64,000 nt of DNA, taken from positions 10,399,432 through 10,463,431 of the forward strand of contig NC_092679.1 in assembly GCF_964355755.1 (NCBI RefSeq), in the 5' to 3' direction. The stretch comes from Antedon mediterranea (lineage: Eukaryota > Animalia > Echinodermata). This document shows positions 1 to 22,200 of this stretch, piece after piece. Below the pieces are notes generated by a model. That model was not told the DNA's origin and made no database searches. It saw only the letters and a program-made list of their open reading frames with translations. The translations under genes and the position numbers were made by a program. Position 1 is the stretch's first letter. The number at the start of each line of letters is the position of its first letter.

Positions 1-1958
1 CAAGAATCAATAGACGTTAGATCTTTTTGAATATTTGGGTCTGAATCCCTAGTGCAAACATTGCGAAAAATGAACACATCATCAGCGTATTGTATAATAC
101 TAGATGTAATGTATAGATGAAGGTCATTAGCATACATGACAAAAAGCAACGGACCCAAAACAGACCCTTGCGGCACGCCTGATTTAACAGGCAACCAGTC
201 TGAAGATTTGCCTTTATATACAACACGCTGTACACGATTTGATAAAAAAGAAGTTATCCAGCTTAACGCAGTGTCATTGATATTGAATGTCAACAATAGC
301 TTGCGGAGAAGAATATCGTGGGATATGGTATCAAACGCACGGCTGAAATCCAAAGTAATAAGGTCAACGGCTGGCGTTTTCGAATCAAGTGCACGTAACC
401 AGTCAGTGGTTGCCGACACCAAGGCTGTGGTACAGGATCGACCAGGAAGAAAGCCGTGTTGATGACTCGCCAACAGGCTGTTACTTTGGCAGTGGTTAAG
501 AATTTGTTGGAAAACAAGTTTTTCCAACATCTTGCACATCACCGACGTAAGAGACACTGGACGATAATTAAGTAAGTTACTTTTGTCACCCTTTTTGAAT
601 ATAGGAACAACATTTGCACGCTTCCACAAAGTAGGAATTTTACCACATAACAGCGATTGATTAAAAAAGTGTGTGATAGCCGGAATAATTACCGGACAAG
701 CGAGTTTAAGCATCCGAACAGTCACACCATCAGGACCAGAAGCTTTATTAGCTGCGAAGTTTTTGATAACAGATTCCACCTGACAACGTGAAAGATGAAA
801 ACCGGCAAGAGATGGAATGTCCAAAGTTGGTGAAGTGAGGCTCACATAATTAGGGGAGTCACTAAAAAAACTCACAAACAACTTGTTAAACTCGTTGGCG
901 ATTTGAGTAGGTTGTCTTATGGTATTGCCGTTAACCACAAAGGAGTCAATGAGTTGAGATGACTTTCGCTTGCTTTTTATAAAAGACCAAAATGACTTCC
1001 GGTTATCTTTCTTTCTAAACAGATTGGTAATGAAGTCACTGTATGCTTTCTTAGACGCGTTGCGTACTTTATTTCGTATACATTTGTATTTATTCCAAGC
1101 CAAAGTACTGCTTACTCTACGAGCTTTTTTAAACAGAGCCCGTTTCTCAAGAATAAGTCTATAAACCACAGGCGATATCCAGGGTTTGGCTTTTTTACGG
1201 GATCGACGAACTGGAATACTATCATTGACACAAGCTAGAAGGAAATCCGAAAACTGATCCCATGCCACATTGATGTCAGTGAAATCAATTAACTCCCATG
1301 GAGTCAACAAAATTAGGCTCTGATAATGTTCAACGTCTGCTTTATGATACTGATAACTTTCACGGACCACGTTGGGAAGTTTTCCAGGAGATCCGCGAAT
1401 TCTAAACGTTACCATGTGATGGTCAGAATTGGCAAGACCTGCATCAATTTTTACTTCACACAATCGATCAGGACGGGAAGTAAATATAAGATCAATTATT
1501 GTATTAGAACTAAAATCATTTGATGATCTAGTTACGTCAAGAACTAGTTGATCAATACACATAGCATCTGCTAAAGACTTTAGGTTAGTTTTTAAGGGAG
1601 TATTGACATTATGCGAATAATCAATGTTAAAATCTCCCTGCAAGATGACGCCTGCATAGGAATCCAAATCCAGATTAACCAGAATATCCTCTAATTTGTC
1701 GATACTCCCAATCTCAGTAGGAGGTCTGTAATATGCTCCACAAATCCATTTTTCTGATCCTACAATCATTTGAACAAATATAATTTCAGTTGTTACATTT
1801 TGCGGAAGCTCAATAATAGAAGGAGAAAGATTATTTGCAACCGCTAACATCACACCACCTCCATGGCGATTTCTGTCCTTTCTAAATATCGTGTAACAAT
1901 CAGTATCCAAGATTAATGAAGATGGTAAAGTAGAGTCTAGCCATGTTTCAGTAACATG
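1..1958 (-). mobile_element. 5'-truncated CR1/L2-group LINE, ORF2 (APE endonuclease + reverse transcriptase), runs off the left edge
   Basis: Minus translation gives APE motifs VTETWL, FRKDRNRHGGGV, YYRPP, GDFN and RT motifs RPVSLTS, QHGF, LDFSRAFD, GVPQGSVLGPLLF, YADD (Y at 89-87). The V codon at 1955 and YADD share a frame; absence from the ORF track fits an ORF with no stop before the edge. Confidence 0.93.
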
Positions 1959-2915
1959 TTTTCTCAACACAAAAATATAATGCGCTCCAATGCCATGCAT
2001 CTCTGTAAAGATATAGAAATATTGTCTGAAGCAATCAATTTATTACATACACAGTATGGAAAGGAACATCAAAGGAATGAGAGAATTTTGAATTGATAAT
2101 GTACAAATTGCAAAATATACAGTAAAAGTAAGTTAGTAACATTCAGTGTTTAGAAAACAAACATTGAATACATGATATAAATTTACCTTTCACGAATTGG
2201 AAATATCAGATATTTCTTGTCTGCAATGTCACCAGGAAGTGACTTTTTCAGATAACTTTTCATTGTCAATTTGTTTTGGATAAACTGTGAATCTACAGCT
2301 GTAAATATGTGAGTATCAGCACATGGATACTCGTGTTGTAGGTGCCTGTTAGTATAAAATGTGGGTAAAAGTTGAGTGTTAACAAAGTACAGATAAAAAT
2401 AACCAAATGGTTTTTCACTTTTGGTGATGAGTAAGCTTGATGCAATTATGAAATCATGGTCAAATAAGCACATTTCAATCATTTGACAGTATTATTATAT
2501 ACAATTTACACAGTGCTACACAACACATTTATTACATTTTACAAAACAATTCAAACCGTTGCAAACCAAGTTAGAATTTATTCTCCACTGATTGTTAGGG
2601 CGTTTGTTGTATGGGAGAATCTATGATGATACTGTCTTTGGTTATGCAGTCTAACAGTACACTTGCCCTGTAAGTGAGAGGTCGCAGGTCCGAATTCTGC
2701 CAGACACGTTTTTTATACAATAACAAAAAACTTTCAGTAACATGAGATCATGTTTTCGAAAATGAGCACTTCCCTACCTTACATAAAAATCCACAATGGC
2801 ACTGCTTATTCCAGCATTAAGGTTGGTTGAATTGATGTCTGTCATTTTTATATTTACAGATTTGGTTCTGGCAGTTGACTCTTTCCTTTTTGAAATAGGA
2901 GGCCATTGTAACAAG
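1948..2915 (-). CDS. Exons 17-19 of the minus-strand gene: N-terminal half of a Ulp1/SENP-like (peptidase C48) domain
   Basis: VNIKMTDINS...ISSAIVDFYVRHL...HIFT...DIADKKYLIFPIRERDAWHWSALYFC follows the Ulp1 pattern (IxxxD..., IIDFY, FIPI...HW); the sequence switches to LINE right after the HW strand. Confidence 0.72.
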
Positions 2916-5900
2916 CTGAAAACAAATGTAAAATAATATTTTTAAGGAAATAAGAATTTAAAATCATACATAAATTACTGAAAGGAAAGAATAACCAAAT
3001 ATAATTTAAACCTACTCAAAATCTTTGTCCACTATACAACATACAAAATCCTCATCTTCCTTGAAAACATTGCTGGCCACACCAGCACACACACAGTGGT
3101 ACCATGCCTGGCACTTTCCACAGCAAATCATCTCTTTATTGGTAGATGTGTGTCCTGTATCAATGACACAAAGGCCCAACTTCTTTGCAACACACTGACT
3201 ACCCAGGACATCTTGGAACCAAGTTGTCTTTGCAGCAGGTCTTCTCTTTTTTCGAGTCTTTATATCTGTAATTACCAATAATATTGTCATGTCTGTTAAC
3301 AGATTAAAAAAAAGGAAACAATTGTCGTATTTAATTGGGAACTTTCGTGTCCAACAGAAAATTCATTGAGCACTTTTTGCATAATTACTCAACCACTGAC
3401 AGAAAAATTTACCAGCAATGGGTAGTAATGGTACTACATGGTTGATGAGTCTGGACTCTGATAAAAATCGACACCAAAGAATTCCTATAACAGGGCGTTC
3501 CTCAAATTGGCAACAAGGATAGATGTATTGCTTGCTTCCATCCTCAATTAAATTTTGTATTTCACATCCAGTTGCAATTGAAATGAATTGAACTTGTAAC
3601 ATTCCTTGAATAAGAAAGAAAATTATCAAATTATAACTTGAAAAACATAATTATTAGCAAAGTCATCCACACCCCGAACACCATCAAATTACAAACTATC
3701 AATAATTTTATTGTTCAAAACAGTTCAATTGAGCATTACAGAAGAGATAGAATTTGCTATGGTTACTTAATTTTACTTAATCTTTATTAATACAAATATA
3801 TTTATTGATTTCCAAAGTGGTTCACTAAAGTTCTACAAAACTACAAAATGAAAGTGATACACATTAATAAAACACAAATTCAAGAAATTTGTCTACACTT
3901 CATACAAAAGAAAACTTTTAGAGGAAATCATGGAAGTGAATTGGATTAACGCATCTACTTTGCAGAAAAATAATACTGTAACTGAATTGATAATTATAAT
4001 AATAATGTATACAGTGTGCTGTGGTCAATGTTTTATGGAAAAGGTAAGGTAAAAGTGAGTCCCGTGTTCTCTGAACGTAGGGGAATGGGCTGTTAGGAGC
4101 TCATTGTACTAAACCTCGGCATTATGTGGTAGGATGGCCAGTTCCTTTCCACGCCGCCTTTTTTCTCCCTAGTATTTTCAACCAGGTACTCGTTTACAGC
4201 TGAGTGGACTGGGAGTTGTCGGGAATTGAACCCGGGTCTATCTGTATGACAGTCAAGTGTCCTAACCACTCAGCTATCAACAACTCTTTTTTATGGAACC
4301 TTCCTAAAATTAATTACAATTTTGATCTTTTCTTTTTTATCGCTATTGTTTTAAAGCGGAGTGTGTCTAGTCAAAAAATAAGTATAGATTGATACATTTA
4401 TTAATATTAATAATGTGATATCGACTTTGCAAAAAAATAATTTTTCCAGACAAAATATCTAAAACTAGAGTGTGCATTTCATACAAGGTCTCAGTCTTCA
4501 TATTCATAATAATTATTATTTTTTGCAGCAGTAATCAATTTGCTAAAATATATGAAACACACCTGAATATGCAAAGTTTTTTGCCAGACAAAACAATTCT
4601 GCTTGGATGATGTAGTCTAGCAGCATATCAATTGTAGGATTTTCCTTAGGCCTCATGTCAAAAATTTCAACTGAGGCAGATACAGCTGCTAAAAAGGCTA
4701 CCACCATAGCTATGTCAGCTTCACCATTAGTTGACAAGCCAGTAAGTATCTATTTCAACCAATGAGATAAAATAATTCAAACTTTACTATAAAACACTAT
4801 CAATTACAAAGAAAAAAAAACATGTTTCCACTTACTTATCTTATTTTTAATTAGATTGATTGCACAACTTAATGATTGATATTTTGTTTTACTCAATGGA
4901 TTACATATGAAACAAGATAAATTTATTCTTTATTCATACTTTAAAAAACTAAACATTCCAAGTAATTTTATGGTATGATGGTATATTTGGCAAACAAATA
5001 TTAAGATACAAGTACTGTACATACACAAAATAAAAAATCTTTTATTAATTATAAAAATATAATTAAAAAAACAAATATGTAAAATAATTTTTTTGGTCAC
5101 CAAAATAGTAAATTATCAAGACTTACATGTTGCTTTAGGTGGTTGTAATGTTCTACAGTCCTCTTAATTGCCATAAGGCGTAGTTGACATGGCTTGCCTT
5201 GCTTTCCAAACAAAATACGGGATATTGAATGATAAAGACAATTACCATCCCCTCGGCTTTTTACTGCAACGCAGGACTTTCCATTTACAGAAAAAAACTT
5301 ATTTTGAAATCTGTAGGGTAAGAGTGGAACAAACATTTAGTGTTATAAACATGTACGACAGGCAATTTCTCAGAAAAAGGCTTTGCACACATCATGACTT
5401 TGGTTTGCTCTTTTGTTGTGGAACTTTTTGTATTTTATGATACAAAAAACCTACAAAGTCTAGATATATTTTAGTGATAAGACTCACCTTTCAAATAGCG
5501 CTTCATTTGTTTTATGGGTGATAAGTGAATAACATGGAAGCGTGCCTGGCACCTTTAATGCTATGTCTTTAAATTCTTGAAAGGAATTAACCTGGCAAAG
5601 TTCATTCAAAAGTTTTTCTGCTCTTTTCTGCACATAAATAAAAATTAAATACAAATTTCAATTAGAAAAAAGATATTACACATTATCATATTAAAATCCA
5701 CATAATTATGATGATAAAATATCATAAATAGAAACAATAAAAAATGTAATACATTTAAAGATTTATTTGATTTATAGATTGAATATCATTGATTGCTTTA
5801 AAAGTAAAAAAAGAAAAATTTAACAACATTAAAATTTCTGCTACCTACAAAAATTAAGAACAAAAAAAAACATATTTACTTACCTCATCTAAAATCTCAT

Positions 5901-8900
5901 CATTGTCTCCTTCTTCATGCTGTTTTTAGACAAAATAATTATTTAAAAAATAATGGACGAGAAAAAAACTATTTTTACCCTGAAATTTGGGGTAAAAATG
6001 TCAACATAACTGAATATTGTTTGACGGTTTGCAAGGGGAAGAATATGTATTAAATATTGTTTGCGGTAGCACCACGTATTAGTTCAATTAAGAACTTATG
6101 TGTTAATTGAACTAATACGTGGTGCTACCGCAAAAAATTATTTTAATAACATAACTGAAGTCATATATTCTTTAATATTTTAATTAATTAATTAATAATA
6201 AAGTAATAAAAAGTGTGTACAGTAATTAACCACAAACATTTTACTCCCACAGTTTATCATTTAAGATCAAATAATTAGATTTGGATTTGATCTTGGAATG
6301 GCACAGGAAGTGTAAATAGGGTGTGGTCTCTAACCTACAAACAATAAAAGAATTGTTTACCTCTTCATCTTCATCATTCTCTGTTTCTACATCTTCGTTG
6401 ACTTCTTCTTTATGCTATTCAAGTTAAAATGTAAATAAATTCATAAAAAACCATAACATATCTACTACAATGTTTCAGTTGCTTAATATTCCAAATTTAA
6501 TATTTTAATTAATCGATGAATAATAAAGTTATAAAAAGTGTGTACAGTAATTAACCACAAACATTTTACTCCCACAGTTTATCTTTTAAGATCAAATAAT
6601 TAGATTTGGACTTGATACTGGAATGGCAGAGGAAGTGTAAATAGGGTGTGGTCTCTAACCTACAAACAATAAAAGAATTGTTTACCTCTTCATCTTCATC
6701 ATTCTCTGTTTCTAAATCTTCGTTGACTTCTTCTTTATGCTATTTAAGTTAAAATGTAAATAAATTCATAAAAAAACCATAATATATCTACAGTACTACA
6801 ATGTTTCAGTTGCTTAATATTCCAATTTAATATTTTAATTAATCAATGAATAATAAAGTTATAAAAAGTGTGTACAGTAATTAACCACAAACATTTTACT
6901 CCCACAGTTTATCGTTTAAGATCAAATAATTAGATTTGGACTTGATACTGGAATGGCACAGGAACTATAAATAGGGTGTGGTCTCTAACCTACAAACAAT
7001 AAAAGAATTGTTTACCTCTTCATCTTCATCATACTCTGTTTCTAAATCTTCGTTGACTTCTTCTTTATGCTATTTAAGTTAAAATGTAAATAAATTCATA
7101 AAAAAACCATAATATATCTACTACAATGTTTCAGTTCCTTAATATTCCAATTTAATATTTTAATTAATCAATGAATAATAAAGTTATAAAAAGTGTGTAC
7201 AGTAATTAACCACAAACATTTTACTCCCACAGTTTATCGTTTAAGATCAAATAATTAGATTTGGATTTGATCCTGGAATGGCACAGGAAGTGTAAATAGG
7301 GTGTGGTCTCTAACCTACAAACAATAAAAGAATTGTTTACCTCTTCATCTTCATCATTCTCTGTTTCTAAATCTTCTTTGATATCTTCTTTATGCTATTC
7401 AAGTTAAAATGTAAAAAATTTCATTAAAAAAACCATAATATATCTACTACAATGTTTCAGTTGCTTAATATTCCAAGTCCTTATCTATTACAGTTAATAA
7501 AATTTTCATATTTATGAGAGCTTCAATACAAACACATGACAAATTATAGTAATTAATTTATTCACTTACCCTTTTATATGCCTCACTATTTTTGTAGCTG
7601 TCTACAATGCGAATCAAGTCTCTTTTTGTTAACATACTTCCATCTATAAACATTTATTCTGTTACTTACAATTTATACAATAATCAAGTTTTTGATTCAA
7701 GAAGAGAGTGATGGATTTGCTTTGTTATATTGAGATAGCAGAAATGTTCTAGTTGAATAGCCTTAATAGAGTGGTGGATAGCTAGCCAAAAAACTGTCAT
7801 ATAGATATCAACAAGATTTCTTGAAGATGATACTATGTGAGAAAACATTAAAAATTAACCCAAAAAATAACATTTTTACACCCTAATCTGTTAATTTTTT
7901 TATTAGAATTTTTAATCAGTAGTTTTACTAAAACTTAAAATGGCAATGGCCATAATGTCATCACATTGTTTGTTTTTTTCATAGTATGTGCGAAAAATGT
8001 CAGCCCATATCAATTTTGCATAAAAAGTATTACCATACTTATTTGAGTGTTGTTTAATCAAATAAATATATGGTTATCAAATTTGCATTCCTTTATGATG
8101 AATTAGTTCAAAGTGATTTGCAAGTTAAAAATCATTGAATATTTATTTAGTTTAAGCAAAATAAAAATATTAAATATACAGTACAATACCTTCTGCTTTG
8201 TGAGTGGGTGAGATAAATTTTATGTTTTCAGGCCACCAATCTGGCTTATTATTAGCTAAATATACAGATTCACCTACCAGTGAGGGACCTAAACATCAAA
8301 ATTAAAACAATATATATACAATATTAAAGAATTTCAGGCATATGGGATAACCCATGAAAAAGGAGGATATATACTGCAAAATAAAATAAAATTAAACGTT
8401 AACAGTAGAGAAAATCCGAACTTGATTGAAAAAATAGATTAAGAGACAACTAGAAGATATTTCGAATATCTGCAGACGGTACCGTTTCGACCTTTCGGGT
8501 CTCATCAGTGCAGAGCAGGATAGAAATATTGTAATGGATTGAAAAAATAGATTAAGAGCCAACTGGATGGAAGATATTTTGAATATCTGCAGACGGTACC
8601 GTTTCGACCTTTCAGGTCTCATCAGTGCAGAGCAGGATAGAAAATCAATGCATGTCCACTAGACTAGCTTAAGCAGGGCCTAGACCAGCCCATGCAGTGT
8701 ACATTGTAATGATGTGTGTGGCCAAATCAGGACACTTTATATACATCACTCAGGTGGATGCGAATTAATTATATTTGTTATATTAATTAATTATAATTTT
8801 AATTATACAATATTATATAGCTCGTAGTGAAATTAAATATGAAGTCAACTTAGTTCACCTCATTATTGTTTTATTTTTGCAATAAAAAGCTTACCTATTT

Positions 8901-11900
8901 CAGTCACTAGCCTCACAACTATCCCCCTTAAACGCATTACGGAGAGTCCAATAGTTTCTTCCTTCAATAAATTATTTAATGTTTTGTACTCACAATGCAC
9001 AGCTTTTTCCTTCTTTCTCATCTCAAATACATAATCTCCTGTTGTGAAAAATGATGAAATCTACTTAAAAACATTTGATAAAGAGCAGCAAATTAAGGTA
9101 ACAGCTATATATTGGTTCTTTAAAGAGTAATGTCACACTTTAACCTACCATGATTTTTACCATCAAGTAGGGCATTATGAACCCCTACTTCAATACTACT
9201 TCTAACCTTTTGGAACACATCACAAATCTCGTTTGAACCTGCAGTAAATGAAATATAATAAATAGAATAAAATAAATCTGTGTTCCAATGAAATATAAAG
9301 TTGAGAAATGTCTTCCAGAATAGTGTGGACTTTATCATACAATTCATCTTTTTTTTTAAAAGTAACATACACACTGTACTATAATACATATATAATATAG
9401 TACTTTATAAGACTGCATGACTAGTATTAGACTAACCATCATATTTCACTATAATGTAATAAAGCTATCCCCATAAGGTTTATCGCAAATACCATTCAAT
9501 CAAGAGGGTGCTGCATGGTTTTTTTATTTATTTTTTAAAATTTTATTTCATCTTCATCCAACAGCGACCAAAGTCGCCCATAATCAATAAATATAATTTA
9601 TATAGATAATTAATTAAAGCCCCATTCCCTACGTTTTTTAGATCTAATTTAAGATCACAAACTATATTTAATGTAAAAATAATACTATATGGTCCTATTG
9701 CGATAACTTTTTTCGTGTTTAAACGGTTAAAAATGTGAAAAATAAGTCGATTCTAATAATTATAGCGGCCCGCTATAAATCCCAAAATGCATTGCGCGCG
9801 GATTGATATTTTTGTTTTTCACCTGTAATTCGCCCACTTTTCGATCGATCGTGAGGCCAAAACAAATGGAAGACTCCTAACTTTTCAGCGAAAATACCGG
9901 GTTTTCCTCAATTTGTATCAACGGAGTCTGGCAAAAATAGAAAGACAATTAATGCAGCAACTATACAACGTCAGGCTAGGTATATAGCTAGCGTACGATG
10001 TTCGTACGTTACCGATGTTTACCAGCTAGGCCTACAAAACTAAGCCTAGCTAGGCTAGGCCTAAGACCGTCCACGAGAGGTCGATCACCGCGAGCTACTT
10101 AGGTAGTGCATTGTTTTTCACTTTTTATCATAATTTACCATAAAACGTACATTTAAGACAAGGAATGACATGGTTTAATGTTTTTAAAGTGATATATATG
10201 TATTATTTTCCAAAAAACGTCCAAAATTGCAGGGAAGGGGTCTTTAAACAACACAATTAGCTAAAATTACAGGTAAATCAATACGATAGCAAATTATCAT
10301 AAAGAAAGTAATTAAGTAGATGTAATAGCAACAGTAATCTTACAACGAAAACAATAAATAGTATCACAAAAAATATCAATAAACAGATTACAATAGCAAA
10401 CAGAATTAAATAATCTAGGAAGACGACAGATCCAACCATCCCTAGTTACATTAACCCTTCCCGGTGGAACAAAAAATAACCCAGGATTTCTTAATCTATA
10501 AACAGGAAAGTTTAAAATAAGAAATAAAGTTACCATCAACAACAGAGTTCATACATTTATACAAGAAAATTAAATCCAATATATTCCTTCTATCTTTAAG
10601 TAAAGCTAACTCAGGATTTTGACCAAATTTACGGAAATAAAATCTACAAAACTTATTTTGAACACGTTGTAACCTAATAGACTAGAAGAAGAAATTGAAT
10701 TAAAAATAACAGAGCAAAACTCAAGATTAGACCGAACTAAAGATTTATTTTATCAATGGTGGGATTGATTTGGGGGAAAATCAACCCGAAAGCCATGCTG
10801 TTTATGAAGGGAAACAATGTAAGAATCAGTGGACAATGCAATGTAAATGACAATTAACGGTCACCACCACCTAAGATTATGATATATTTAGACTTCCAGG
10901 CCTAGAGGGGCCTAGTTCTAGTACTAGGCTAGTCTAATAATGCTACTGCACTATCACTTACACGAAAAATAAAACAGTTTGATGATGCGATCAAGCCAAT
11001 ATCTCTTCATTGATGAAAGGTTTTTGGCCCCAAAACCTTTCAATCACCGTACATCGTACTCTTATTTGCAATATACCTTGTTGTTTATACTTACCAGAAA
11101 ATTGCAACTTTCCATCTAGAAATGCAACTGTTGCAATAGGAAGGTTCTTTGAAATACTATTTGTCTGGAAACAAATAGAAATTGTTACATTTGTCAAATT
11201 GTTAACACATAGTTTATCTTTCTTATACTTACTAATTAGTAATATTATATAGGACCTACTGTACTAACAACAGATAGTCCTTAGGCCTAGACTATTGTCA
11301 TTTGTAAAAAGTGCTTTTTTTGGAGGATGATGAGGCCCCTATTTACTGTAAAAAACCTTTAAAATGATTATTTTAGGCCTGAAATTAATTCTATATAATA
11401 ATATATGGCAATGTATATAATAAAGTTACAGAGCAAAAAATAAATAAAATGGATGGCCTAAGTCATGTAAACATTATTCTACTGCAGTTACTGCAGTAAT
11501 GACAATTTTCACTTTAAATTACCTATTTAGGCCTAGGTCTATTCAATTATTTCCATAAAACTATATCGTCCAAAACTTAAAGGAAATCTGATGTGCAGGG
11601 TCTTTTTTTACCATCAGAGCCATACATCACTGGAATTCTCTGGTCTGCCTAATTAATTATTTAATTAATATAATACAAGCCTCTTCAGTCAGTGAACATC
11701 TTTAGGTCTAGAATTGACAACTATTTTCAGCTAGAAATGGAAACTAAACTATTTCCATCAAACATTAAGTTAAGTTAAGTTAAGCCTTTTTTTGGATAAA
11801 TAGGCTAGGCCTACTAACTAGGCTAGGCTTCGGCCTAATTTTAATGCATTGTTTTTTAATAATATTCTGCCTAATAAATGTCTGCATTTAAACATTGCAA

Positions 11901-12366
11901 TCATACTTTATTGCAGTAAATATAAACGGTACTGCAGTAACTGCAGTAGAATAATTTTGAATAAGTACGTAGGGTCTAATTTATTAATTAAGACTCGCTT
12001 ATTAGAGTAGGCAGGCCTACTCTAGTCTAGGTTTCTAGTTCCAGGCCTCTTAGTAGGGATAGATAGGGGCTATGCCAAGCCTACATCATATATAGGCCTA
12101 GGCCTAGCTAGTACCCAAGCTACGCGTAGCCTAGGTAGCCTAGGCCTCCTAGGCCTACTAGGCTAGGCTAGGCATAGCCCTGCTGGGCTAGGCTAGGCCT
12201 AATATTAAATAATTATATTTCATTATTTGGGACCATTTTAATTCAAGGCAAAATTAATATTATATAATTAAATTATACATACTCTTTTTTGTAACCGTTT
12301 TAAGGAGACACGTAGATATTTCTTCCTTAATTTTACTGCCTGTGACTGTGACTTTTTTTTTGCCAT
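1948..12366 (-). CDS. 19-exon multidomain gene: NRF1/Ewg-like DNA-binding region, acidic repeat, vertnin-like OTU protease, PHD finger, Ulp1/SENP-like peptidase (3' end interrupted by LINE)
   Basis: Exons (minus): 12283-12366, 11095-11164, 9149-9238, 8895-9038, 8190-8273, 7570-7643, 7341-7394, 7016-7069, 6686-6739, 6361-6414, 5884-5919, 5488-5627, 5127-5310, 4563-4749, 3413-3604, 3016-3292 (alternative in-frame acceptor at 3265), 2778-2915, 2187-2345, 1948-2002. All GT-AG, phase-compatible, no internal stop; begins MAKKKSQSQAVKLRKKYLRVSLKRLQKR. Confidence 0.8.
3016..3292 (-). CDS. Exon 16 of the minus-strand gene: PHD-type zinc finger
   Basis: CVAKKLGLC...EMICCGKCQAWYHCVCAGV...FVCC; donor GA|gtaggt precedes the apparent TAG and joins in frame to exon 2778-2915. 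Confidence 0.8.
3413..5627 (-). CDS. Exons 12-15 of the minus-strand gene: vertnin-like OTU cysteine protease domain
   Basis: Cys motif SRGDGNCLYHSISRILFG (exon 5127-5310), AELFCLAKNFAYSGMLQVQFIS, and His motif IGILW...INHVVPLL (exon 3413-3604). Confidence 0.8.
4041..4288 (-). mobile_element. tRNA-derived SINE
   Basis: Minus strand A box TAGCTGAGTGG, B box GGTTCAATTCC, non-tRNA body, TTACCTT-type tail; flanked by direct repeat TTTTATGGAA (4031-4040, 4289-4298). Confidence 0.8.
6060..6134. repeat. Short foldback palindrome (likely MITE remnant)
   Basis: TTTGCGGTAGCACCACGTATTAGTTCAATTAA and its exact reverse complement around a short spacer. Confidence 0.7.
6165..7476. repeat. Tandem array of four 325-330 bp units, each holding one 54-nt coding exon
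   Basis: Near-identical units; exons at 7341-7394, 7016-7069, 6686-6739, 6361-6414 (minus) encode HKEDIKEDLETENDEDEE, HKEEVNEDLETEYDEDEE, HKEEVNEDLETENDEDEE, HKEEVNEDVETENDEDEE, each with tag acceptor and gtaaac donor. Confidence 0.9.
7570..12366 (-). CDS. Exons 1-6 of the minus-strand gene: NRF1/Ewg-like DNA-binding region
   Basis: Spliced product ...LQFSGSNEICDVFQKVRSSIEVGVHNALL...LSVMRLRGIVVRLVTEIGESVYLANNKPDWWPENIKFISP...LTKRDLIRIVDSYK parallels the NRF1 domain order (KVFG..LENVV, QLRAFI, KPIWWPEDIPW, ALRTIVKNCY). Similarity judged by eye. Confidence 0.65.
8469..8514 (-). ncRNA. Minimal type I hammerhead ribozyme, copy 1
   Basis: Minus: TCTGCA CTGATGA GACC-CGAAA-GGTC GAAAC GGTACC GTC TGCAGA = stem I, CUGAUGA core, stem II, GAAA, short palindromic stem III, GUC cleavage triplet, stem I partner. 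Confidence 0.88.
8586..8631 (-). ncRNA. Minimal type I hammerhead ribozyme, copy 2
   Basis: Minus: TCTGCA CTGATGA GACC-TGAAA-GGTC GAAAC GGTACC GTC TGCAGA, 117 bp from copy 1. Confidence 0.88.
9618..10243. mobile_element. Kolobok-type non-autonomous element (626 bp), copy 1
   Basis: TTAA|AGCCCCATTCCCT...AGGGAAGGGGTCT|TTAA; near-identical inverted copy at 19015-19640. Confidence 0.8.
10290..10745 (-). mobile_element. 3' fragment of a CR1/Jockey-group LINE
   Basis: Minus translation RLQRVQNKFCRF...LLKDRRNILDLIFLYKCMN, then (frameshifted) LRNPGLFFVP...RLPRLFN...IDIF. Confidence 0.65.
11685..11784 (+). mobile_element. Tiny 3' end of a CR1-like LINE with (TAAGT)n tail
   Basis: SVNIFRSRIDNYF followed by TAAGTTAAGTTAAGTTAAG. 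Confidence 0.4.
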
Positions 12367-12728
12367 TTTTGTTAATATAACAGATCACACAGGGCCTAGG
12401 AGGAACGCTAAAAAAAGGTTCTGTGTTCCGCTCTCCATCCTCTACTACTCTAAAAGTTTAAACCAATCACAGAATAGACAAAGTAAACCCCCTAAGTTGT
12501 TAAAATTGATAGACTTATAAACTAACAAATCATAAAATGTAATTGTATATTAATTTATATTAATCTAAGCACAGCTGTAATTTATGGTAATATATCTTTA
12601 ATTGCTTTGGTGGCATCTTTTATTTAAAAACAAACCAACAAACACGTAATGAATATCCACCATGAGCATGTTCATGTCTTCATTTTGACGGTCCGAATAT
12701 AGCTCAATACAGACAAGCATATTTTAAA
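12367..12728. promoter_or_regulatory. Putative bidirectional promoter / 5' UTRs between the two divergent ATGs
   Basis: Divergent start codons at 12366 (minus) and 12729 (plus); CCAAT box AACCAATCA near 12461; YY1-like AAAATGGC overlaps both start codons. Confidence 0.55.
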
Positions 12729-13212
12729 ATGGCGGCCCTTTACGGCAGCATGTGTTTGCGACTGAAAACTGTTAAAACAATAAATAATTTTGTGAAACCT
12801 GAACGAATTCGTGTGAATAAATCTTCCAGAAGATACCAAATAAATATGTATCCATATGACGTACAACATACTCAATATATTGCCCAAATTTCAGTGTTTT
12901 CTACTGCTTTAGTGCACAATCTGCACCAAGGGCCAGGCTGCGGCAACAACACTGCTCGCAAACAACAGAAGCAGCAGAATGATACTCATGTATCCCCGAA
13001 GGCGGGGCCGTCATTTGATGGAGCAAAGCCTAGTTCTAGTACACTACCTATTGCAGAATTACTTAAAGAAGCTGAGGAGAATCAAAAGAAGCGCCAACAA
13101 GATGAGGCAAAAACTAAAGGGAAAAGGGGAATGGGAAAAGCTCAAAAGATAGCATTTGGATTTTTTGCAGTTGGAAGTATTGGGGCTGCATTACTCTCGT
13201 TTTATGAACTTG
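12729..13212 (+). CDS. TIMM50: TIMM50 exon 1 (presequence, matrix segment, TM helix)
   Basis: Basic N-terminus, hydrophobic [21 protein letters not shown], donor G|gtaaga in phase 1 matching exon 2. Confidence 0.88.
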
Positions 13213-16200
13213 GTAAGACCTCTACTACGCGGATCTCTACTACTACTACTACTACTACTACCACCTACTAGCCTAGAGTCTAGGCCTAGGTTAGCTAGTA
13301 TTATTAAGGCGAGGCGGCTAGGCTAGCTAGGTAGGCCTAGAACCTAGATGTTTTTGAATTTTTCGTGTATATTAGGCCGGTGTCAGATGAAATCGGTCGC
13401 GTTTGAAATCGGTCGCGATAAAATCAACTTCCGGTATTTTGTATGGCGCGCCGCTAGAACTATACGTTTAATGAAAACGGTCGCGCTATTTTGCATGGGA
13501 CGCACTAGATACATTTTTAATGAAAACACTAATTATGTTTTAGTTAATTTTGAATATAGAATTTCTAATTTTACCTCGATCGTTATTATTTTTTTAGTAC
13601 AGTAAATATAAATATTTATCTCATTATTTATAAATAATTTGTGTTTTCATTTTATCTTACAGGTGTCAATGAATAATTGTAATGTGTTCGTTTAGAAAAT
13701 CGTTTTTAAAAGTGTTATTGAATAAGTTTTTGAAAAGATTAGCATGCCACTGTTTAAAGTTTTTAAAATGTTGAAATAATTCAACTGGATACCAGCTCAA
13801 TGAGGTTTATGCAATAAAGGAAGATGATGTATGACGATGATTTTTAAGTTCGATATCCGCCACTCTTACGTGAGCATGGTTTTAGGATAATACTAATAAA
13901 ATAATATTAGTCCAAGAGCATTATGCACTTGTCAATTGTATGACCCACTATACGACCCCCGGGAGAGGTGCGTCATTTACAAATAATTATTGACGCAGGG
14001 GTGCGTCAAAAAGCCTAGATGGTACGTCACATCAATGAACAAGGTGTGTCAATGTCCGTCACTTTACCACCCACCATATCATAAACAACATGGCCACAGT
14101 GCGTCAAAATGGGTGCGTCATGGTCACCTAAAGGTAAGTCACCTTTTTGACGCACGGGTGCGTCATGGTATTCAAACGTATGACGCACATCTGACAAATG
14201 ACGCACCTCTCCCGGGGGTCGTATAGTGGGTCATGCAATTGACAAGTGCATTAGTTCATAAGTATAGGCATACCCGGACATTTTTGGTAACAAGCTAATT
14301 TTTTCAGGAAAGGTCCAGAACTATGATTGGAACATCATACTAAAAGTCCTGAAAATTCCTCTTTGTGCTCTCCGAGAAATCCAAGATGGCGTCCAAAATG
14401 GCTGCCATTTTAATTAGTCTATAACTTTGTAACCGCTTGTCATAGAGTAATGGTTTTGGTGTCAAATAGTTCACAGTATATACATTCCTATTTGCTCTAA
14501 CAGAAAATTTTGTCAAAAAATGGCCGCTACAACAGTTTCTGGTAGTTTGACCTTTGACCTGGTCTTATCATATTTCGGTAATGGCTTGTCATAGAGAATT
14601 GAGATTAGGCCCAAATTGTTCAGAACTTGCATATTTTTATTTGGTGTAATGAAATATTTTATCCCAAAATGACCGGAAGTGAGGTTATTGACCTCTTATT
14701 GACCTATTCATATATCTTTTACCGTATCTCAAGAAATATTTATCGTATAGCGTTACTTTTGGTGTCAAATTGTTTGGAACATATACATTACTATTTAGTC
14801 TAATACAACAGTTTGCCCTAAAATGCTCGGAAGTAAGTTAAAATATTGAAAATTTAAAAAATCAAAGAGCTGCATAGGCAGAGTATATGAATACTGTAGA
14901 TAAAATCAAACTTTTAACTTTTAAAAAATGCCTTAAAACATGTTTTGGGCATAGCACATCATCAGGTAAAGTGAATTGTTACGAAAAGAAAATCAATAAA
15001 TTACAAAGAACAACTGTCAGTGGCTAATCAAAGTTGGTTAAAGTAAACAAAAGACAATATATATATATATATATATATGGCATATACCATGGCACATATC
15101 CGGATTGTCAAAAACAAATGTCAAAGACCCTTCTGCAATTTTTAGATTAGATTTTTAAACGTGACTTTATAGCTCACGATGTCGGTCGGTAAACACTAAC
15201 TCATATTCATATTTTTTCGTTATTTGGACACAGGATATTAATACTTGGAGGCAAATATAAATGTTTTTAAACATTTTTTAACATTTTCAGCAATTTCGGT
15301 CGGTTGGTCGGTCAGTAAACATTAAACTCATATTCATATTTTTTCGTTATTTTGACAGTCAATATTAATACTTGGAGGCAATTATACATGTTTTTAAAAA
15401 TTCAAAAAATCAACATTTTCAGCAATTTCGGTCGGTAAGTCGGTCGGTAGGTCAGTAAACAATAATTCAAATTTGCGCAAGCGCATGCAGCCATGTATAT
15501 GGCCTTGTTGACTTATTAAAAATAACGCATTTTGAAACATTACTTGTTTTAAATGTTCGTTATATGGTTTATTTATGATAAAAAGAGAATGTACCCATAT
15601 TTAACTGTTCTAAGATGAAAAAAATTATCGCCATACAGTATGCCCTATATAGGATTTATTATATATTGAAAATATGCAAAATCACTGTAACATTGATCAG
15701 CAGCATTCTGTTACAGTCATTCTTCATCTGATGTTGCATCTTCAACATCTTGGTGTTTGTTGCTTTTTTCATATCATTACCATCATGTTCATCTGTATGG
15801 ATGTTGTTTCATGTTTGCCAAAAACAGTTATGACATTAATTTGTTTTCATCTTTAAACAGTTAAAAAGTTAGAGTCTAGGCTTGCCAGTTAGAGAACATC
15901 AAGAGTGCATTCTCTTTTAAAACAAGGAATGACCTGGTTTCATGTTTCAAAATGCATTATTTTTACAAATAAAATGGTCTTTACATTCGTTTTTTGACAA
16001 TCCTGAGTAAATATATGCCATGTACATACTGTAGTGTTTGCCATTTGGGTATTTTCATGTGAAATGTATATGACCTGAAAATTTCATTTTCACAGTATCA
16101 TAACGTCTACCGGTATACATTTCCTAAATTCAGGGAAAATTTTCATTAAAAAATTTTGTTTAGCAATATTGCTAATCAAACTGATTTTTAAGTCGAGAAA

Positions 16201-19200
16201 CATAGTTTTGTATTGTATTTTTTGCTACACAATTTTCAAAATGTGTAGCAATAAGGTTGTTTTGTATAGCTTTTTGCTACGCTACACTGGCGAAAATGTT
16301 CTCTGAAATTACATAAAAGTTATACTTCTATGAACAAAAATAAATATCGTAATTTGTATATAAATAAAATAATAAAAATAATGACGTTATTTCAACAAAG
16401 CACTAATTCGCGTATGTAACGCGAGTTAAAGACAAATAAAGCATTTAAAATGTATTCATGACAATTGACATCTACATGGGTGACATTTTGTAGCAATAAC
16501 ATTTCAACCATAACTAGTATGAGAATTTAAGTTTCCCTGTGTTTTGGTCATGTCCATTTTTTGTAACAAGTGTTATGCTTGGTTCCCACTAGCGACGCAA
16601 CACAAGGACGTAACGCAATGCAAGTGAATTGACCAATCACAAGCGATGGCGTATTCGCTTGTGATTGCTAACTGTCTATAACTTCGCTTGTCATTGGTTA
16701 AAACGCTTGCGTTGCGTTTACGTCCTTGCGTTACGTTCTAGTGGGAACCAAGCTTTACCGATATTCTTTGTTCTATCGCAGCAAAATTTACCCTCAAGGT
16801 TATTGTTCAAAACAACAAAACACTATTCAACTACCCAATAAAATGTAACGCTTGTTGTGGAATAACCCATTTTTTTGTTTAATTAACCAACTTTGATTAG
16901 TAACAATTCACTTTACCTGATGATGTGCTATGCCCAAAACATGTTTTAAGGCATTTTTTTTAAAGTTAAAAGTTTTATTTTATCTACAGTATTCATATAC
17001 TCTGCCTATGCAGCTCTTTGATTTTAAAAATTTTCAATATTTTAACTTACTTCCGAGCATTTTAGGGGAAACTGTTGTATTAGACTAAATAGAAATGTAT
17101 ATGTTTCAAACAATTTGACACCAAAAGTAACGCTATACGATAAATATTTCTTGAGATACGGTAAAAGATATGAATAGGTCAATAAGAGGTCAATAACCTC
17201 ACTTCCGGTCATTTTGGGATAAAATATTTCATTACACCAAATAAAAATATGCATGTTCTGAACAATTTGGGCCTAATCTCAATTCTCTATGACAAGCCGT
17301 TACTGAGATATGATAAGACCAGGTCAAAGGTCAAACTACCAGAAACTGTAGTAACAGTCATTTTTTGATAAAATTTTCTGTTAGAGCAAATAAGAATGTA
17401 TATACTGTGAACTATTTGACACCAAAACCAATACTCTATGACAAGCGGTTACAAAGTTATAGACTAATTAAAATGGCAGCCATTTTGGACGCCATCTTGG
17501 ATTTCTCGGAGAGCACAAGGAGGAATTTTCAGGACTTTTAGTATGATGTTCCAATCATAGTTCTGGACCTTTCCTGCAAAAATTAGCTTGTTACCAGAAA
17601 TGTCCGGGGCAAACCCTAATGCTCTTGGACTATATGCCGTTATAAATCAATCTACCGGGCCTATACAGTAGGACTATGCAGTATGCTGTACAATGATAGG
17701 CCTAGATGTGAGAATAATAATGGATGGATAATAAAGGTGGGCACGATTCTCAAAGAGGTAATCTTGCTTGCACTGATATTTAAACATTTAGATTTACGAA
17801 CGGCGTACTGATGTGAGACACTGAGTGGTACTTAATTATTTACATAAAGTGATTATTATAAATGAAGAAATAAAAGATATTCAAATTAAAAACTATAGTA
17901 TCGCTGACGTATACGTAAATTATATACATCGTTTCACCATGGAACTATGTTTCACAAAAACACGTGCAGGCCTATGTTTCAAACGTATGGTTATTAGTAA
18001 TAGGCCTATACGTCATCTTTACATGGCCATGGACAAACGATCGTACGTGTTTTGTCCATGATTTGACACACTAGTGCGTGTTTTTTTTTTTAAAGGGAAT
18101 CCCCGTCAGCAAAATAACGTGCAGTTAACGTCTGCACGATCATAGAAGGCGCATCCACGATATGGCCTATTTCGGGGTTTATTTATTTTATTTTTATAGT
18201 AATTCGCCTTTTAACGATCCGCATATAATAATCATTTTTACTAGAAACTATTTTAGGCCTAAACATTAGAAATAAAAATATACCGTGCAACAATAATCAT
18301 TATAGGCCTATACTTAATATTATCCTACATAACGTACGGACATAAATAAAATAGAAATTGAAATAAGGTGTTCCAATAGTAAGTTTTTAACGACATGGAT
18401 ATGATATATCTGCCACAGTATGCATAAGTATAAAAATGGATACGCTGGCTTTACGGGCTATACATTGTAACAATTATTGTTTTTAAATAAATTGTTCTCT
18501 TTTACGTAATTGTTTGCATAATATTAATAAAAGACAGACGTATATTCTCTATACAGTATAATATATTAATTACAGTCAGTGGCGTATCCAGGATTTTGAA
18601 GTTGGGGGGGGCCGGGAATTGCCAATTTGCCGACAAAATTGGTGTCATTATCTGTACATACACGACATCTCTGATCAATATGTGTTCTAGGATTCATATT
18701 GTCAGTCATATTGTCTTATATGGGATAACGATGCAAAATTAAAACCAAACCAACATTATCTGTTAGTATGTTGTATTCATATTACAGTAAAGAAAGAATT
18801 AGGAAAATCTGATTGGTAGTTTTTGAAATATAGGGTCTAAAACATCGCCGAAAATGATCGTTTTTAGCCACGAAAGAAGTAAAACCATTTGCGGCCTCAG
18901 TCGACAATTCTATTAACTACGCCATTTTTGGTTAAAATAATTACATATAATTACGTTTTTTAGTAATTTATTTTATATATCACCATTGAAAATATCAATA
19001 AAACATGTTATTAAAGACCCCTTCCCTGCAATTTTGGACGTTTTTTGGAAAATAATACATATATATCACTTTAAAAACATTAAACCATGTCATTCCTTGT
19101 CTTAAATGTACGTTTTATGGTAAATTATGATAAAAAGTGAGAAACAATGCACTACCTAAGTAGCTCGCGGCGATCGACCTCTCGTGGACGGTCTTAGGCC

Positions 19201-22200
19201 TAGCCTAGCTAGGCTTAGTTTTGTAGGCCTAGCTGGTAAACATCGGTAACGTACGAACATCGTACGCTACCTATATACCTAGCCTGACGTTGTATAGTTG
19301 CTGCATTAATTGTCTTTTTATTTTTGCCAGACTCCGTTGATACAAATTGGGGAAAACCCGGTATTTTCGCTGAAAAGTTAGGAGTCTTCCATTTGTTTTG
19401 GCCTCACGATCGATCGAAAAGTGGGCGAATTACAGGTGAAAAACAAAAATATCAATCCGCGCGCAATGCATTTTGGGATTTATAGCGGGCCGCTATAATT
19501 ATTAGAATCGACTTATTTTTCACATTTTTAACCGTTTAAAGACGAAAAAAGTTATCGCAATAGGATCATATAGTATTATTTTTACATTAAATATAGTTTG
19601 TGATCTTAAATTAGATCTAAAAAACGTAGGGAATGGGGCTTTAAATGCTTATAAAATATATAAAGTTGTTTGGAATTCGGACAAATTCATTGCTCTAACT
19701 TTGTGTAGTAACGATCAGAGAGATTCATGGTACACGCGCGAGAGAAAACATTCCGCTGCGGGCAATTCGCATCCACCAATCAAATCAGCTAGAATCCTAA
19801 ATCATTCAACCGTGAGCAATGCCAATCGCGAGAAAGCTCAGCTTTGATTGGCTTACAATGACATCATATCACAAAATGGTGGTTTTGTAGTTGAGCCTCA
19901 CGGAATATTCTGTTCCAAAAATGAAATACATGGATATTTTTTATGGTATATGTGCTTTTTCTTTAAAAATTTTGAATAATAAAGGCCTCATATCGAGAAA
20001 AAAAACCGGGTTTTTGGCACTTATAATAAATATCTTAGACAAAAAAGCACATGGCATGTGGAACTATATAATCTCTTAGCGTAGGAAGACATACAAATCC
20101 CAGGTCATGAGAGGCTCAACTGCATGCAAAAACAAGGTTTTAGGGTAAGGTCAAAGACTTTTGAGTAAACAATCTACCGCGTAAGGCCGTACGTACATGC
20201 TACACATTTTTTACGTGTTTCGTTAGATGTAATGAAAATAAAAAATAGTTGATCTGAAGGGATCAATGATGATATGATATGTTAATAAACAAACACTCAA
20301 AAGAATTATGTTTACAGTTCAATTATTGTCAGAATAAATAGTTTATTTTTTTCCCCGGCACCTTTGTTTGCCGACGGCCGCGATGATGTGCCGACGGAAA
20401 CGAAATCAGGGGGGCCCGGGCCCCCCGGCCCCCCTACTGGATACGCCACTGATTACAGTACATAATAAAATAGAGGTAAATTATTATATGCCTAATAAAA
20501 TATTTTAGTGTCTAGAAATGGCCATTTTGAAAAGACACAGTCCTTCTCCGAGACCTGTGAAATAAAAAAAAAATGATTGATAATAAATATTTATTAACCG
20601 AAATAAAAAATATCCACATAAATAATCTGGTTCCTAAAAAATATCAATTAAATCTAGACTATATAAACGAAGAAAATGTAAATCCCGCTAGCATGCATCT
20701 CGATCACTCCATACAAAATAGCGCGACCGATTTCAAACGTATAGCTCTAGCGGCGCGCCATACAAAATACTGAAAGTTGATTTCATCGCGACCGATTTCA
20801 TCGTAAACCATTAGGCCTAGCCTAGGCCATCAGGTGAAAATTCTAGTGTTCAATCCCGTTCCAATTTCTTAAGACTAAAAAAAATCCTCATGATAATTAT
20901 TTGGCTTTGTTTTGTTTGTTTGTTTGTTTTATCTTTATACTGGGTGACCTCTTCAGTCAAAGACTGATCTCCCAGAGGGCCCAGTTGGTGATCAGTGGCT
21001 GTGATGTACTAATACACCGGGGTAACCCCCTACTCGTCTCGAAAGATGTACTAGGTTCTTTAAAGTGCACACGAGCAAGTTGTGTACACTGGACCTACGG
21101 TTTATAGTCCTTATCCGAGAAGACTCGTTCTACCACCAGAACCATGGAGTGAGTAAGCCTCGAACCCCTGCCGATGTTATGGCTACGTGATTACGGTTCC
21201 ACTGTCTTAACCGCTCGGCCACTCACTCACTTCCGTTTCGCACCTGTCACTTATTTCGACTCAAAATTTGTTAAGTAACTTTATCGTGAGTACCACACCT
21301 TAGAATTAGGCCTCAAAAACACTTTTACGAAGGAGATCACACAAAAAGTACATTGTCGTTTACTTACAGAAACGAATAAATATTGTAAAATTAGCACCCT
21401 GGGATTTACAGTAGGCCTTGTCTTAAAAATGAGTCCAATTTTTTTATTTGAACTCATTTAAACAAACCCAATTTGTGTTTTGTATATACCATTAGAGTTG
21501 AGGGATGGGGAAGAGGATGGGAAGAACAATTTTTAAATATATTCTCTATTAGTCCGGTGGCAGGAGGGGGGAATCACCACCCAAAAGGGGACAAATTGCC
21601 ATCCAACTTTTCTAGACCAGAATTTTCCGTAGATTACGAATATGGAAGGTAATCGATCAGGATAGGAAGCGTTTTCGAGATATAAGGGGTCAAAGTTCAA
21701 AATTGACCAATTACAACAATTTATTATGTATAATTATGTATTATAACAAATTTATTGAAGCACAATTTGGTCTTTTATTACATTTTTATGATTATAGGTA
21801 TCTATTCAATCATCTTATGAAAAAAAATCCTTTGTGATTAAGGGTCAAATGTCAATATTGACCAATCATAGAACGTACCTATAAAACCAAATAAAAACTA
21901 ATATTTAATAAAAATCGGATGTTTTCTCATCCTGTTAATCAATCATACGCAATGTAAAAGAGCGAATACATCATTTCATCAGTTGACATAAGGTCAATTT
22001 CATCAGTTGACATAAGGTCAAAGGTCAACATTTTAATACGCGTATTAGTTAACAAATAAATGCAAAGTTGTTATTGATGGTTTTACAAGTAATCAAATTA
22101 TTGGATTAGTAAAGTTATGTTATTTCATTATAATACTGTATTTAATCAAATCAGACTTCGATCAGGATAGGAAGCGAATAGGAAGAGATAAGGGGTCAAA

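What the first reader, a model, noticed from the sequence alone, without database searches (positions are those of the whole stretch)
1948..12366. Hidden 19-exon gene combining an NRF1-like DNA-binding region, OTU protease, PHD finger and Ulp1-like protease
Seen: 19 small GT-AG exons join in phase into about 709 codons with no internal stop, mostly invisible in the ORF track. Motifs in order: KPDWWPENIKF, acidic repeats, GDGNCLY...NHVVPLL, CGKCQAWYHCVC, IVDFY...LIFPI...HW. Known: these match NRF1/Ewg DNA-binding, OTU/vertnin (deubiquitinase fold), PHD (histone-tail reader) and peptidase C48 (deSUMOylase) families; OTU, Ulp1 and PHD domains each occur as cargo of large DNA transposons. Inference: one protein that binds DNA, reads chromatin and removes both ubiquitin and SUMO would be a plausible anti-silencing factor of a transposon, or a domesticated lineage-specific chromatin regulator. 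I do not recognise this four-domain architecture as a named gene.
Basis: partly seen in the sequence, partly recalled or inferred. Interest (0 to 1): 0.88.

Follow-up and report, generated by a model that had tools for sequence, protein, structure and literature searches.

The report
Double-protease chromatin gene in feather star
A many-exon feather-star gene encodes two predicted tag-removing protease domains and a likely histone-reading finger behind a possible DNA-binding domain, a mix of parts known from jumping genes that would likely let it strip ubiquitin-type marks from chromatin; in this copy a retrotransposon has cut off the second protease.

Summary
The gene is real. Nineteen minus-strand GT-AG exons join in phase into 705 codons. 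Residues 88-703 equal two RefSeq 'uncharacterized' Antedon mediterranea isoforms, which reproduce 15 of 18 junctions; one junction shows in a probable RNA run. Main correction: a young LINE at 1-1955 breaks this allele just after the Ulp1 His. RefSeq carries 108 more residues that complete the domain, and DNA contigs show a LINE-free form. OTU and Peptidase_C48 pass Pfam cut-offs; PHD is below cut-off with odd ligand spacing; 'NRF1-like' stays a lead (no PF10491 hit, atlas 0.81, folds failed). Haplotype differences avoid exons (0 of 17; 2 of 21 with exon-13 rows). The gene sits head-to-head with TIMM50, encodes no transposase, and no full-length relative was found; exon-level relatives (about 40%) share exon edges. 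An earlier, unchecked scan note describes a similar NRF1-like/OTU gene in bivalves. Best reading: a host-resident, transposon-derived, chromatin-tethered ubiquitin/SUMO-type isopeptidase. No activity is shown and the downstream flank is outside the window.

The parts
12283..12366 (-). exon 1 (ATG; basic N-terminus); not in the RefSeq protein
   Evidence: in phase; donor rank 12 of 210
11095..11164 (-). exon 2; not in the RefSeq protein
   Evidence: in phase; best acceptor of 214 and best donor of 210 in 9030-12700
9149..9238 (-). exon 3; not in the RefSeq protein
   Evidence: in phase; donor rank 2 of 210, acceptor 16 of 214
8895..9038 (-). exon 4; holds the Met at which RefSeq starts
8190..8288 (-). 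exon 5; KPDWWP motif of the possible DNA-binding domain
   Evidence: PF11001 E 7.5e-4, below cut-off; RefSeq match
7570..7643 (-). exon 6; end of N-terminal domain
6171..7476 (.). 4 x 325-bp tandem array, each unit carrying a 54-nt acidic micro-exon (exons 7-10: 7394-7341, 7069-7016, 6739-6686, 6414-6361)
   Evidence: RefSeq X2 lacks 48 residues = exons 9-11
5884..5919 (-). exon 11, acidic micro-exon
5488..5627 (-). exon 12
5127..5310 (-). exon 13; OTU N-terminal part with catalytic Cys342
   Evidence: PF02338 28.7 bits, cut-off 23.3
4563..4749 (-). exon 14; OTU middle
   Evidence: homolog P0008 aligns
3413..3604 (-). exon 15; OTU C-terminal part with His497
   Evidence: NH.VP invariant in 5 of 5 aligned sequences; an X1 contig ends at the donor 3413
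3016..3265 (-). exon 16; basic linker and PHD-like finger
   Evidence: PF00628 22 bits, cut-off 24; X1 contig 3016-3266
2778..2915 (-). exon 17; start of Ulp1-like domain (IVDFY)
2187..2345 (-). exon 18; Ulp1-like domain
   Evidence: spliced joint to exon 19 in X1
1957..2002 (-). exon 19, host part, with the Ulp1 His (HW); the frame runs two codons into the LINE and stops at 1948
   Evidence: identity to RefSeq ends at codon 703 = position 1957
1..1955 (-). 5'-truncated endonuclease-RT LINE inserted in the sense direction in the last coding exon; runs off the window
   Evidence: 651 codons without a stop, YADD motif; RVT_1 98 bits and Exo_endo_phos_2 27 bits; contigs with and without it
12729..13214 (+). 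first coding exon of the divergent TIMM50-like neighbour; 362 bases between the two ATGs
   Evidence: NIF hits in 3 of 4 downstream exon frames tested at 34.8-43.5 kb; the name TIMM50 rests on recalled motifs

Best explanation
This is a spliced, apparently host-resident feather-star gene, likely built from transposon-cargo domains, whose intact product is predicted to be a chromatin-tethered isopeptidase with two protease modules. Steps. (1) Shown: one reading frame carries an N-terminal KPDWWP domain, an acidic micro-exon linker of variable length, an OTU domain, a PHD-like finger and a Ulp1/C48 domain. (2) Inferred, weak: the N-terminal domain binds DNA like NRF1/GTF2I-type domains, and exons 1-3 would add an NRF1-like dimerisation part. 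(3) Inferred: the PHD-like finger reads a histone H3 tail. (4) Inferred from retained Cys342/His497: the OTU cleaves ubiquitin. (5) Inferred from His plus the Asn, Gln and Cys of the RefSeq tail: the C48 domain cleaves SUMO or another ubiquitin-like tag. (6) Inferred: at its target loci it would undo ubiquitin/SUMO-dependent repression. (7) Shown: the window's allele has lost the last three C48 active-site residues to a young LINE, so it can at most keep the OTU.
For: In-phase model and RefSeq identity. Spliced joint in X1. OTU and C48 above cut-off. Best PDB matches of the finger are DIDO1, KDM5B, PPS, BPTF and KDM5A PHDs, E 0.0015-0.017, with the MICC Met and the WxH Trp aligned (their role in the methyl-lysine cage is recalled). 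Differences between haplotypes avoid exons: 0 of 17 substitutions and 0 of 5 indels where exons are 29.6% of 5348 bases, P 0.0026. 362 bases from the TIMM50 ATG, no transposase domain, one cluster on one contig. OTU, Ulp1 and Ulp1+PHD are cargo of Ginger1, Mutator and Helitron elements (PMC2836005, passages; PMC11417382, passages). SUMO is needed for piRNA-guided silencing in Drosophila (10.1101/533091, abstract).
Against: No PF10491 hit and no NRF1 match in PDB. PHD below cut-off and lacking canonical spacing of the first and last Cys pairs. The OTU lacks an Asp/Asn two residues after the His, and the C48 has Asn for Asp and Gly where Ulp1 has a Trp (reference residues recalled). A truncating LINE allele exists beside the intact one. 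With the exon-13 rows added the exon deficit weakens to 2 of 21, P 0.023, one of them Gly338Trp next to the catalytic motif. Only 1 of the 16 introns in the laid stretch appears as a joint among the 15 of 23 joints shown, and X1 also holds unspliced contigs. The downstream flank, where a transposase could lie, is outside the window.
Confidence: 0.5

Rival explanations
1. The gene is still the accessory gene of a large DNA transposon that landed at the TIMM50 promoter; the transposase lies downstream, outside the window, and the protein protects the element from ubiquitin/SUMO-dependent silencing.
For: Domain set is transposon cargo. PHD + Peptidase_C48 clusters are the nearest atlas neighbours (0.79-0.80, leads only). 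Fast divergence: best exon-level relatives 40-46%. Extra, diverged contigs cover part of exon 13 (3 contigs at 5252 in X3).
Against: Only 362 bases to the TIMM50 ATG and no repeat of that spacer in the window. Introns have gathered a SINE, a 654-bp element and a tandem array, which suggests long residence. One RefSeq cluster on one contig, no paralog among 5522 candidates. Exons conserved between haplotypes.
Confidence: 0.27
2. A decaying relic: once a transposon cargo gene, now merely transcribed from the TIMM50 promoter, with no present function.
For: Truncating LINE allele; degenerate PHD; hints of damaged partial copies at exon 13 (a Gly-to-Trp change and a 4-base loss); no full-length relative found.
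Against: An open frame over 19 exons, retained catalytic Cys/His in both proteases of the intact allele, and 0 of 17 substitutions in exons.
Confidence: 0.13
3. A functional dual isopeptidase whose N-terminal domain and finger do not target chromatin (for example protein-binding modules), so the 'DNA-binding anti-silencer' picture is wrong although the proteases are real.
For: NRF1 assignment has no profile or fold support; the only Pfam match is a fungal helical bundle below cut-off; RefSeq lacks exons 1-3.
Against: Basic, NLS-like stretches at the N-terminus and before the finger (sequence); atlas neighbours with a family are both DNA-binding families, GTF2I repeat and Nrf1; PHD matches are chromatin readers.
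Confidence: 0.1

Closest known systems
Ginger1 and Mutator transposases with C-terminal OTU, Ulp1 or Ulp1+PHD; Helitron OTU/C48 cargo (PMC2836005, PMC11417382; passages read)
   Same: Same three modules (OTU, PHD, Ulp1); Ginger1-9_HM has Ulp1 with PHD; some Ginger1 genes have 1-4 introns.
   Different: In the Ginger1 table (16 families) each has OTU or Ulp1, none both, and they are fused to a DDE transposase. Here both are in one protein, with 18 introns, no transposase domain and an N-terminal KPDWWP domain.
OTU deubiquitinases (PF02338) and vertnin
   Same: GDGNC Cys motif, passes the Pfam cut-off; the NH.VP end motif resembles vertnin (recalled).
   Different: Human vertnin lacks the catalytic site (PMC10318531, passages); this protein keeps Cys and His. 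No solved structure matches the C-terminal half.
Ulp1/SENP proteases (PF02902, Peptidase C48)
   Same: Intact allele scores 37.2 bits against a cut-off of 20.7 with His, Gln and Cys in order.
   Different: Asn for the catalytic Asp; no SENP among 45 PDB matches at E up to 10; the family includes ubiquitin-preferring members (PMC7214410, search listing only), so SUMO specificity is open; window allele truncated.
NRF1/Ewg/P3A2 DNA-binding region (PF10491); GTF2I repeat; PF11001
   Same: KPxWWP motif (NRF1 motif recalled); atlas likeness 0.81-0.83; a roughly 85-residue segment upstream could correspond to NRF1's dimerisation domain (layout from PMC10810270, section 16 read).
   Different: No profile, sequence or fold match obtained; membership not established.
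RefSeq XP_071962630.1 / XP_071962631.1 (Antedon mediterranea, uncharacterized)
   Same: The same gene: 616 of 616 residues identical over exons 4-19.
   Different: RefSeq lacks exons 1-3 and has the 108-residue tail that the LINE removes in the window; no function is assigned.

Membership tests
OTU cysteine protease (PF02338) | Pfam gathering score | tested here: met
   28.7 bits for exon 13, 26.0 for P0001, 24.0 for P0002; cut-off 23.3
OTU cysteine protease (PF02338) | catalytic Cys and His | tested here: met
   Cys342 in GDGNC, His497 in NHVVP; His invariant in 5 of 5 aligned sequences
OTU cysteine protease (PF02338) | OTU fold | tested here: inconclusive
   single-sequence model pLDDT 34
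OTU cysteine protease (PF02338) | cleaves ubiquitin isopeptide bonds | not testable with these tools
   needs an assay
Peptidase C48 / Ulp1 (PF02902) | Pfam gathering score, intact allele | tested here: met
   37.2 bits, cut-off 20.7
Peptidase C48 / Ulp1 (PF02902) | complete His-Asp/Asn-Cys triad with Gln, in the window's allele | tested here: not met
   only the His precedes the LINE; the 108-residue tail has no match in the window. Present, with Asn, in RefSeq
Peptidase C48 / Ulp1 (PF02902) | SUMO specificity | not testable with these tools
   needs an assay
PHD finger (PF00628) | Pfam gathering score | tested here: not met
   22 bits for exon 16, 16.4 for the full protein; cut-off 24
PHD finger (PF00628) | Cys4-His-Cys3 ligand set | tested here: inconclusive
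   core C-x2-C, H-x2-C align to DIDO1; first pair is C-x7-C and the last two Cys are adjacent (sequence)
NRF1/Ewg DNA-binding domain (PF10491) | Pfam profile match | tested here: not met
   no hit at E up to 5 or 10 for 13 exon pieces, P0001 or P0002; exons 1-6 could not be scanned as one piece
NRF1/Ewg DNA-binding domain (PF10491) | NRF1 DBD fold | tested here: inconclusive
   model pLDDT 40.6, best Z 2.8; atlas 0.81 is a lead
Vertnin (VRTN) | vertnin-type OTU sequence and architecture | not testable with these tools
   no vertnin profile or sequence was available; the likeness is recalled; catalytic residues are kept here, unlike human vertnin
Ginger1 / Mutator / Helitron transposon | transposase domain in the same protein | tested here: not met
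   none in P0001 or P0002
Large DNA transposon, accessory gene | linked transposase, terminal repeats, target-site duplication | tested here: inconclusive
   nothing upstream; downstream flank lies outside the window and no genome is held
Large DNA transposon, accessory gene | multiple genomic copies | tested here: inconclusive
   one RefSeq cluster; mostly one contig per exon, but extra contigs at exon 13; contig depth is no copy number

The most novel reading that the evidence does not exclude
This is one member of an undescribed, intron-rich invertebrate family of sequence-specific 'de-silencers': an NRF1-like dimeric DNA-binding head brings both a deubiquitinase and a deSUMOylase, plus a histone reader, to chosen loci. 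It arose as a transposon counter-defence against SUMO-dependent piRNA silencing and has been kept as a host gene in crinoids, with linker length tuned by micro-exon duplication and skipping.
Probability: 0.2. Interest if true: 0.8.

Novelty: new variant of a known kind. Interest (0 to 1): 0.5.

Why it matters
OTU and Ulp1 domains ride on many DNA transposons, but what they do there is conjecture (PMC2836005 discussion passages). A single, spliced, apparently constrained animal protein that holds both proteases with a histone-reader-like finger and a possible DNA-binding head would make the idea testable: express two small domains, assay them on ubiquitin and SUMO substrates, and tether them to a silenced reporter. 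The natural LINE allele that removes only the C48 active site is a ready-made comparison. If the assays fail, or the gene proves to be a piece of a transposon, it is one more shuffled cargo gene of modest interest.

Tried and rejected
No genome is held for this window, so copy number, downstream synteny and a linked transposase were not tested. No listed run is on record as RNA; no reads were laid on exons 1-2. A first exon-18 acceptor at 2298 and an exon-16 donor at 3012 gave stops and were dropped; 2345 and 3016 are in phase and agree with RefSeq. Full-length search: 1 hit (self) among 5522 candidates; exon 13 against longer proteins: 1 hit among 2 candidates; these word-based searches are insensitive, so this is no proof of absence. 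The HMMER job on exon 15 gave 6 hits; P0003, P0004 and P0007 were dropped as repeat or unrelated matches; P0009 (E 0.027) is marginal. Viral and metagenome scans found no relative. Both AlphaFold jobs were single-sequence and failed (pLDDT 34.0 and 40.6); the fold search on the second is uninformative (best Z 2.8). PDB sequence searches with exon 5, exon 4 and alignment A1 found nothing useful. The exon-chain shuffle test (0 of 100 shuffles reach the real score) picked a chain with two extra exons and another exon-3 acceptor, so I use only its site ranks. The joint 3993-4779 first looked like loss of exon 14; rejected because separate contigs cover exon 14 without differences at similar depth and the match runs only 55 letters. 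Paper searches for this architecture found no description; PMC12730594 and PMC9297572 hold none of the terms sought. The library lacks most subscription papers and Repbase. No supplements were read.
Full report
Observation. I rebuilt the gene from the minus strand. All quoted motifs are present and in order. Exon 13 retrieved one protein, P0001, a RefSeq 'uncharacterized protein' of Antedon mediterranea; its cluster holds two isoforms, 724 and 676 residues, on one contig. The long isoform is identical to model residues 88-703, which reproduces 15 of the 18 junctions; the short one lacks 48 residues, equal to micro-exons 9-11. RefSeq models are predictions and may come from the same animal, so this confirms the splice calls, not conservation. 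In run X1, RNA by the tool's guess, one contig joins 2002 to 2187 with CT..AC ends, exactly intron 18; another spans 3016-3266, exon 16 to within a base; a third ends at the exon-15 donor. X1 also holds unspliced contigs, and only this 1 of 16 laid introns appears among the 15 of 23 joints shown. Exons 1-3 (87 residues) are absent from RefSeq and rest on phase and splice-site rank.

The broken end. Identity to RefSeq stops at codon 703, position 1957. From 1955 to the window edge runs a 5'-truncated endonuclease-RT LINE, 651 codons without a stop. RefSeq continues for 108 residues that have no match in the window and supply the rest of the C48 active site. Contigs of X2 and X4 match the gene from 1957 and carry about 1715 other letters in place of the LINE, while an X3 contig (same sample) crosses the LINE junction. 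So an interrupted and an uninterrupted form both exist; heterozygosity is the simplest reading but was not shown.

Domains. OTU passes the Pfam cut-off (28.7, 26.0, 24.0 bits vs 23.3) and keeps Cys342 and His497; the His motif is invariant in 5 of 5 aligned sequences. Human vertnin, which this OTU resembles by my recall, is described as lacking its catalytic site (PMC10318531, passages). Peptidase_C48 passes in the intact allele (37.2 vs 20.7), with Asn at the Asp position; no SENP is among 45 PDB matches, so the substrate is open. The finger scores 22 against 24; its best PDB matches are DIDO1, KDM5B, PPS, BPTF and KDM5A PHDs, but the first and last Cys pairs are oddly spaced. The N-terminal domain has no PF10491 hit; it gives PF11001 below cut-off and atlas neighbours GTF2I repeat 0.83 and Nrf1 0.81, which the tool calls leads. 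Both folds failed. NRF1 has a dimerisation domain before its DNA-binding domain (PMC10810270, section 16); exons 1-3 sit where such a part would be, which is inference only.

Context and relatives. The ATG lies 362 bases from that of a divergent TIMM50-like gene. Neither isoform has a transposase domain, and no terminal repeat was seen upstream; the downstream side is outside the window and no genome is held. No full-length relative came up among 5522 candidates. Exon 15 found P0005 and P0006 (40 and 41% identity; 2 kept of 5 non-self hits), and their profile found P0008, which has a 19-residue insert exactly at the exon 14/15 junction and loses similarity at the end of exon 15, as a read-through gene with the same intron positions would. 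These records are unnamed. An earlier, unreviewed scan note (e1-9810255) describes an NRF1-like + OTU gene with PHD-bearing relatives in bivalves and reads it as a transposon helper; I could not test it, and it mentions no Ulp1 domain in the part shown.

Constraint. In six X2 contigs over the gene body (5348 bases, 29.6% exon) all 17 substitutions and all 5 listed indels are intronic, P 0.0026 for the substitutions. Adding the rows at 5088-5252 gives 2 of 21 in exons (one silent, one Gly338Trp from a place covered by extra contigs), P 0.023. One search showed 40 of 119 difference rows; I used those that account fully for these contigs. AT-rich introns may also mutate faster, so this is a hint of purifying selection, not proof.

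Mechanism. Most likely the intact protein is a nuclear isopeptidase held on chromatin by its N-terminal domain and finger, removing ubiquitin with the OTU and SUMO or another ubiquitin-like tag with the C48 domain. The architecture is shown; every activity is inferred. The parts are known transposon cargo: Ginger1 families carry OTU, Ulp1 or Ulp1+PHD on the transposase, and Mutator and Helitron elements carry Ulp1 or OTU (PMC2836005 and PMC11417382, passages). SUMO is required for piRNA-guided silencing in flies (10.1101/533091, abstract), which makes an anti-silencing origin plausible. I put host-resident and transposon-derived at 0.5, still an accessory gene of an element at 0.27, relic at 0.13, and functional but not chromatin-targeted at 0.1.

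Novelty. The gene is annotated but uncharacterised, and eight paper searches found no description of OTU, PHD and Ulp1 together behind an NRF1-like domain; the library is incomplete. It is a new combination of known modules, not a new kind of system. Interest 0.5: real, constrained and testable, but the most exciting parts, DNA binding and dual activity, are unproven, and the window's own allele is broken.

Noticed in passing
window 1-1955 (-): Very young LINE: 651 codons without a stop; run X1 holds a contig with 3 differences in 1687 letters that continues 690 letters further towards the element's 5' end, so a longer near-identical copy exists.
   Followed up: partly
window 6171-7476: Tandem duplication of an exon-plus-intron unit (4 x 325 bp, 95% alike) lengthens the acidic linker; RefSeq isoforms differ by skipping three micro-exons.
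   Followed up: yes
window 5071-5290: DNA runs show extra diverged contigs over part of exon 13 (Gly338Trp, a 4-base loss, a 140-base skip): partial paralogs or a damaged allele; unresolved.
   Followed up: partly
window 9597-10247 and 19011-19664: 654-bp element in two inverted copies, 97.9% alike, one in intron 2 and one in a TIMM50 intron; older copies near 53.9-54.6 kb.
   Followed up: no
window 4070-4278: High-copy SINE-like repeat in intron 14 (up to 96 contigs per run).
   Followed up: no
window 6056-6138: 36-bp inverted repeat, 97% complementary, 11-nt loop, in intron 10; perhaps a tiny MITE.
   Followed up: no
window 46612-48157 (+): Several broken frames, one with a C2H2-like motif and an acidic tract, that look like a decayed transposon gene; no Pfam family near cut-off. 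34 kb from the gene.
   Followed up: partly
window 37590-39521 (-): Broken reverse-transcriptase frames of another LINE inside a TIMM50 intron.
   Followed up: no
window 12729-43486 (+): TIMM50-like gene with a first intron region of about 21 kb filled with nested repeats; NIF domain exons at 35.0, 40.6 and 43.2 kb.
   Followed up: partly
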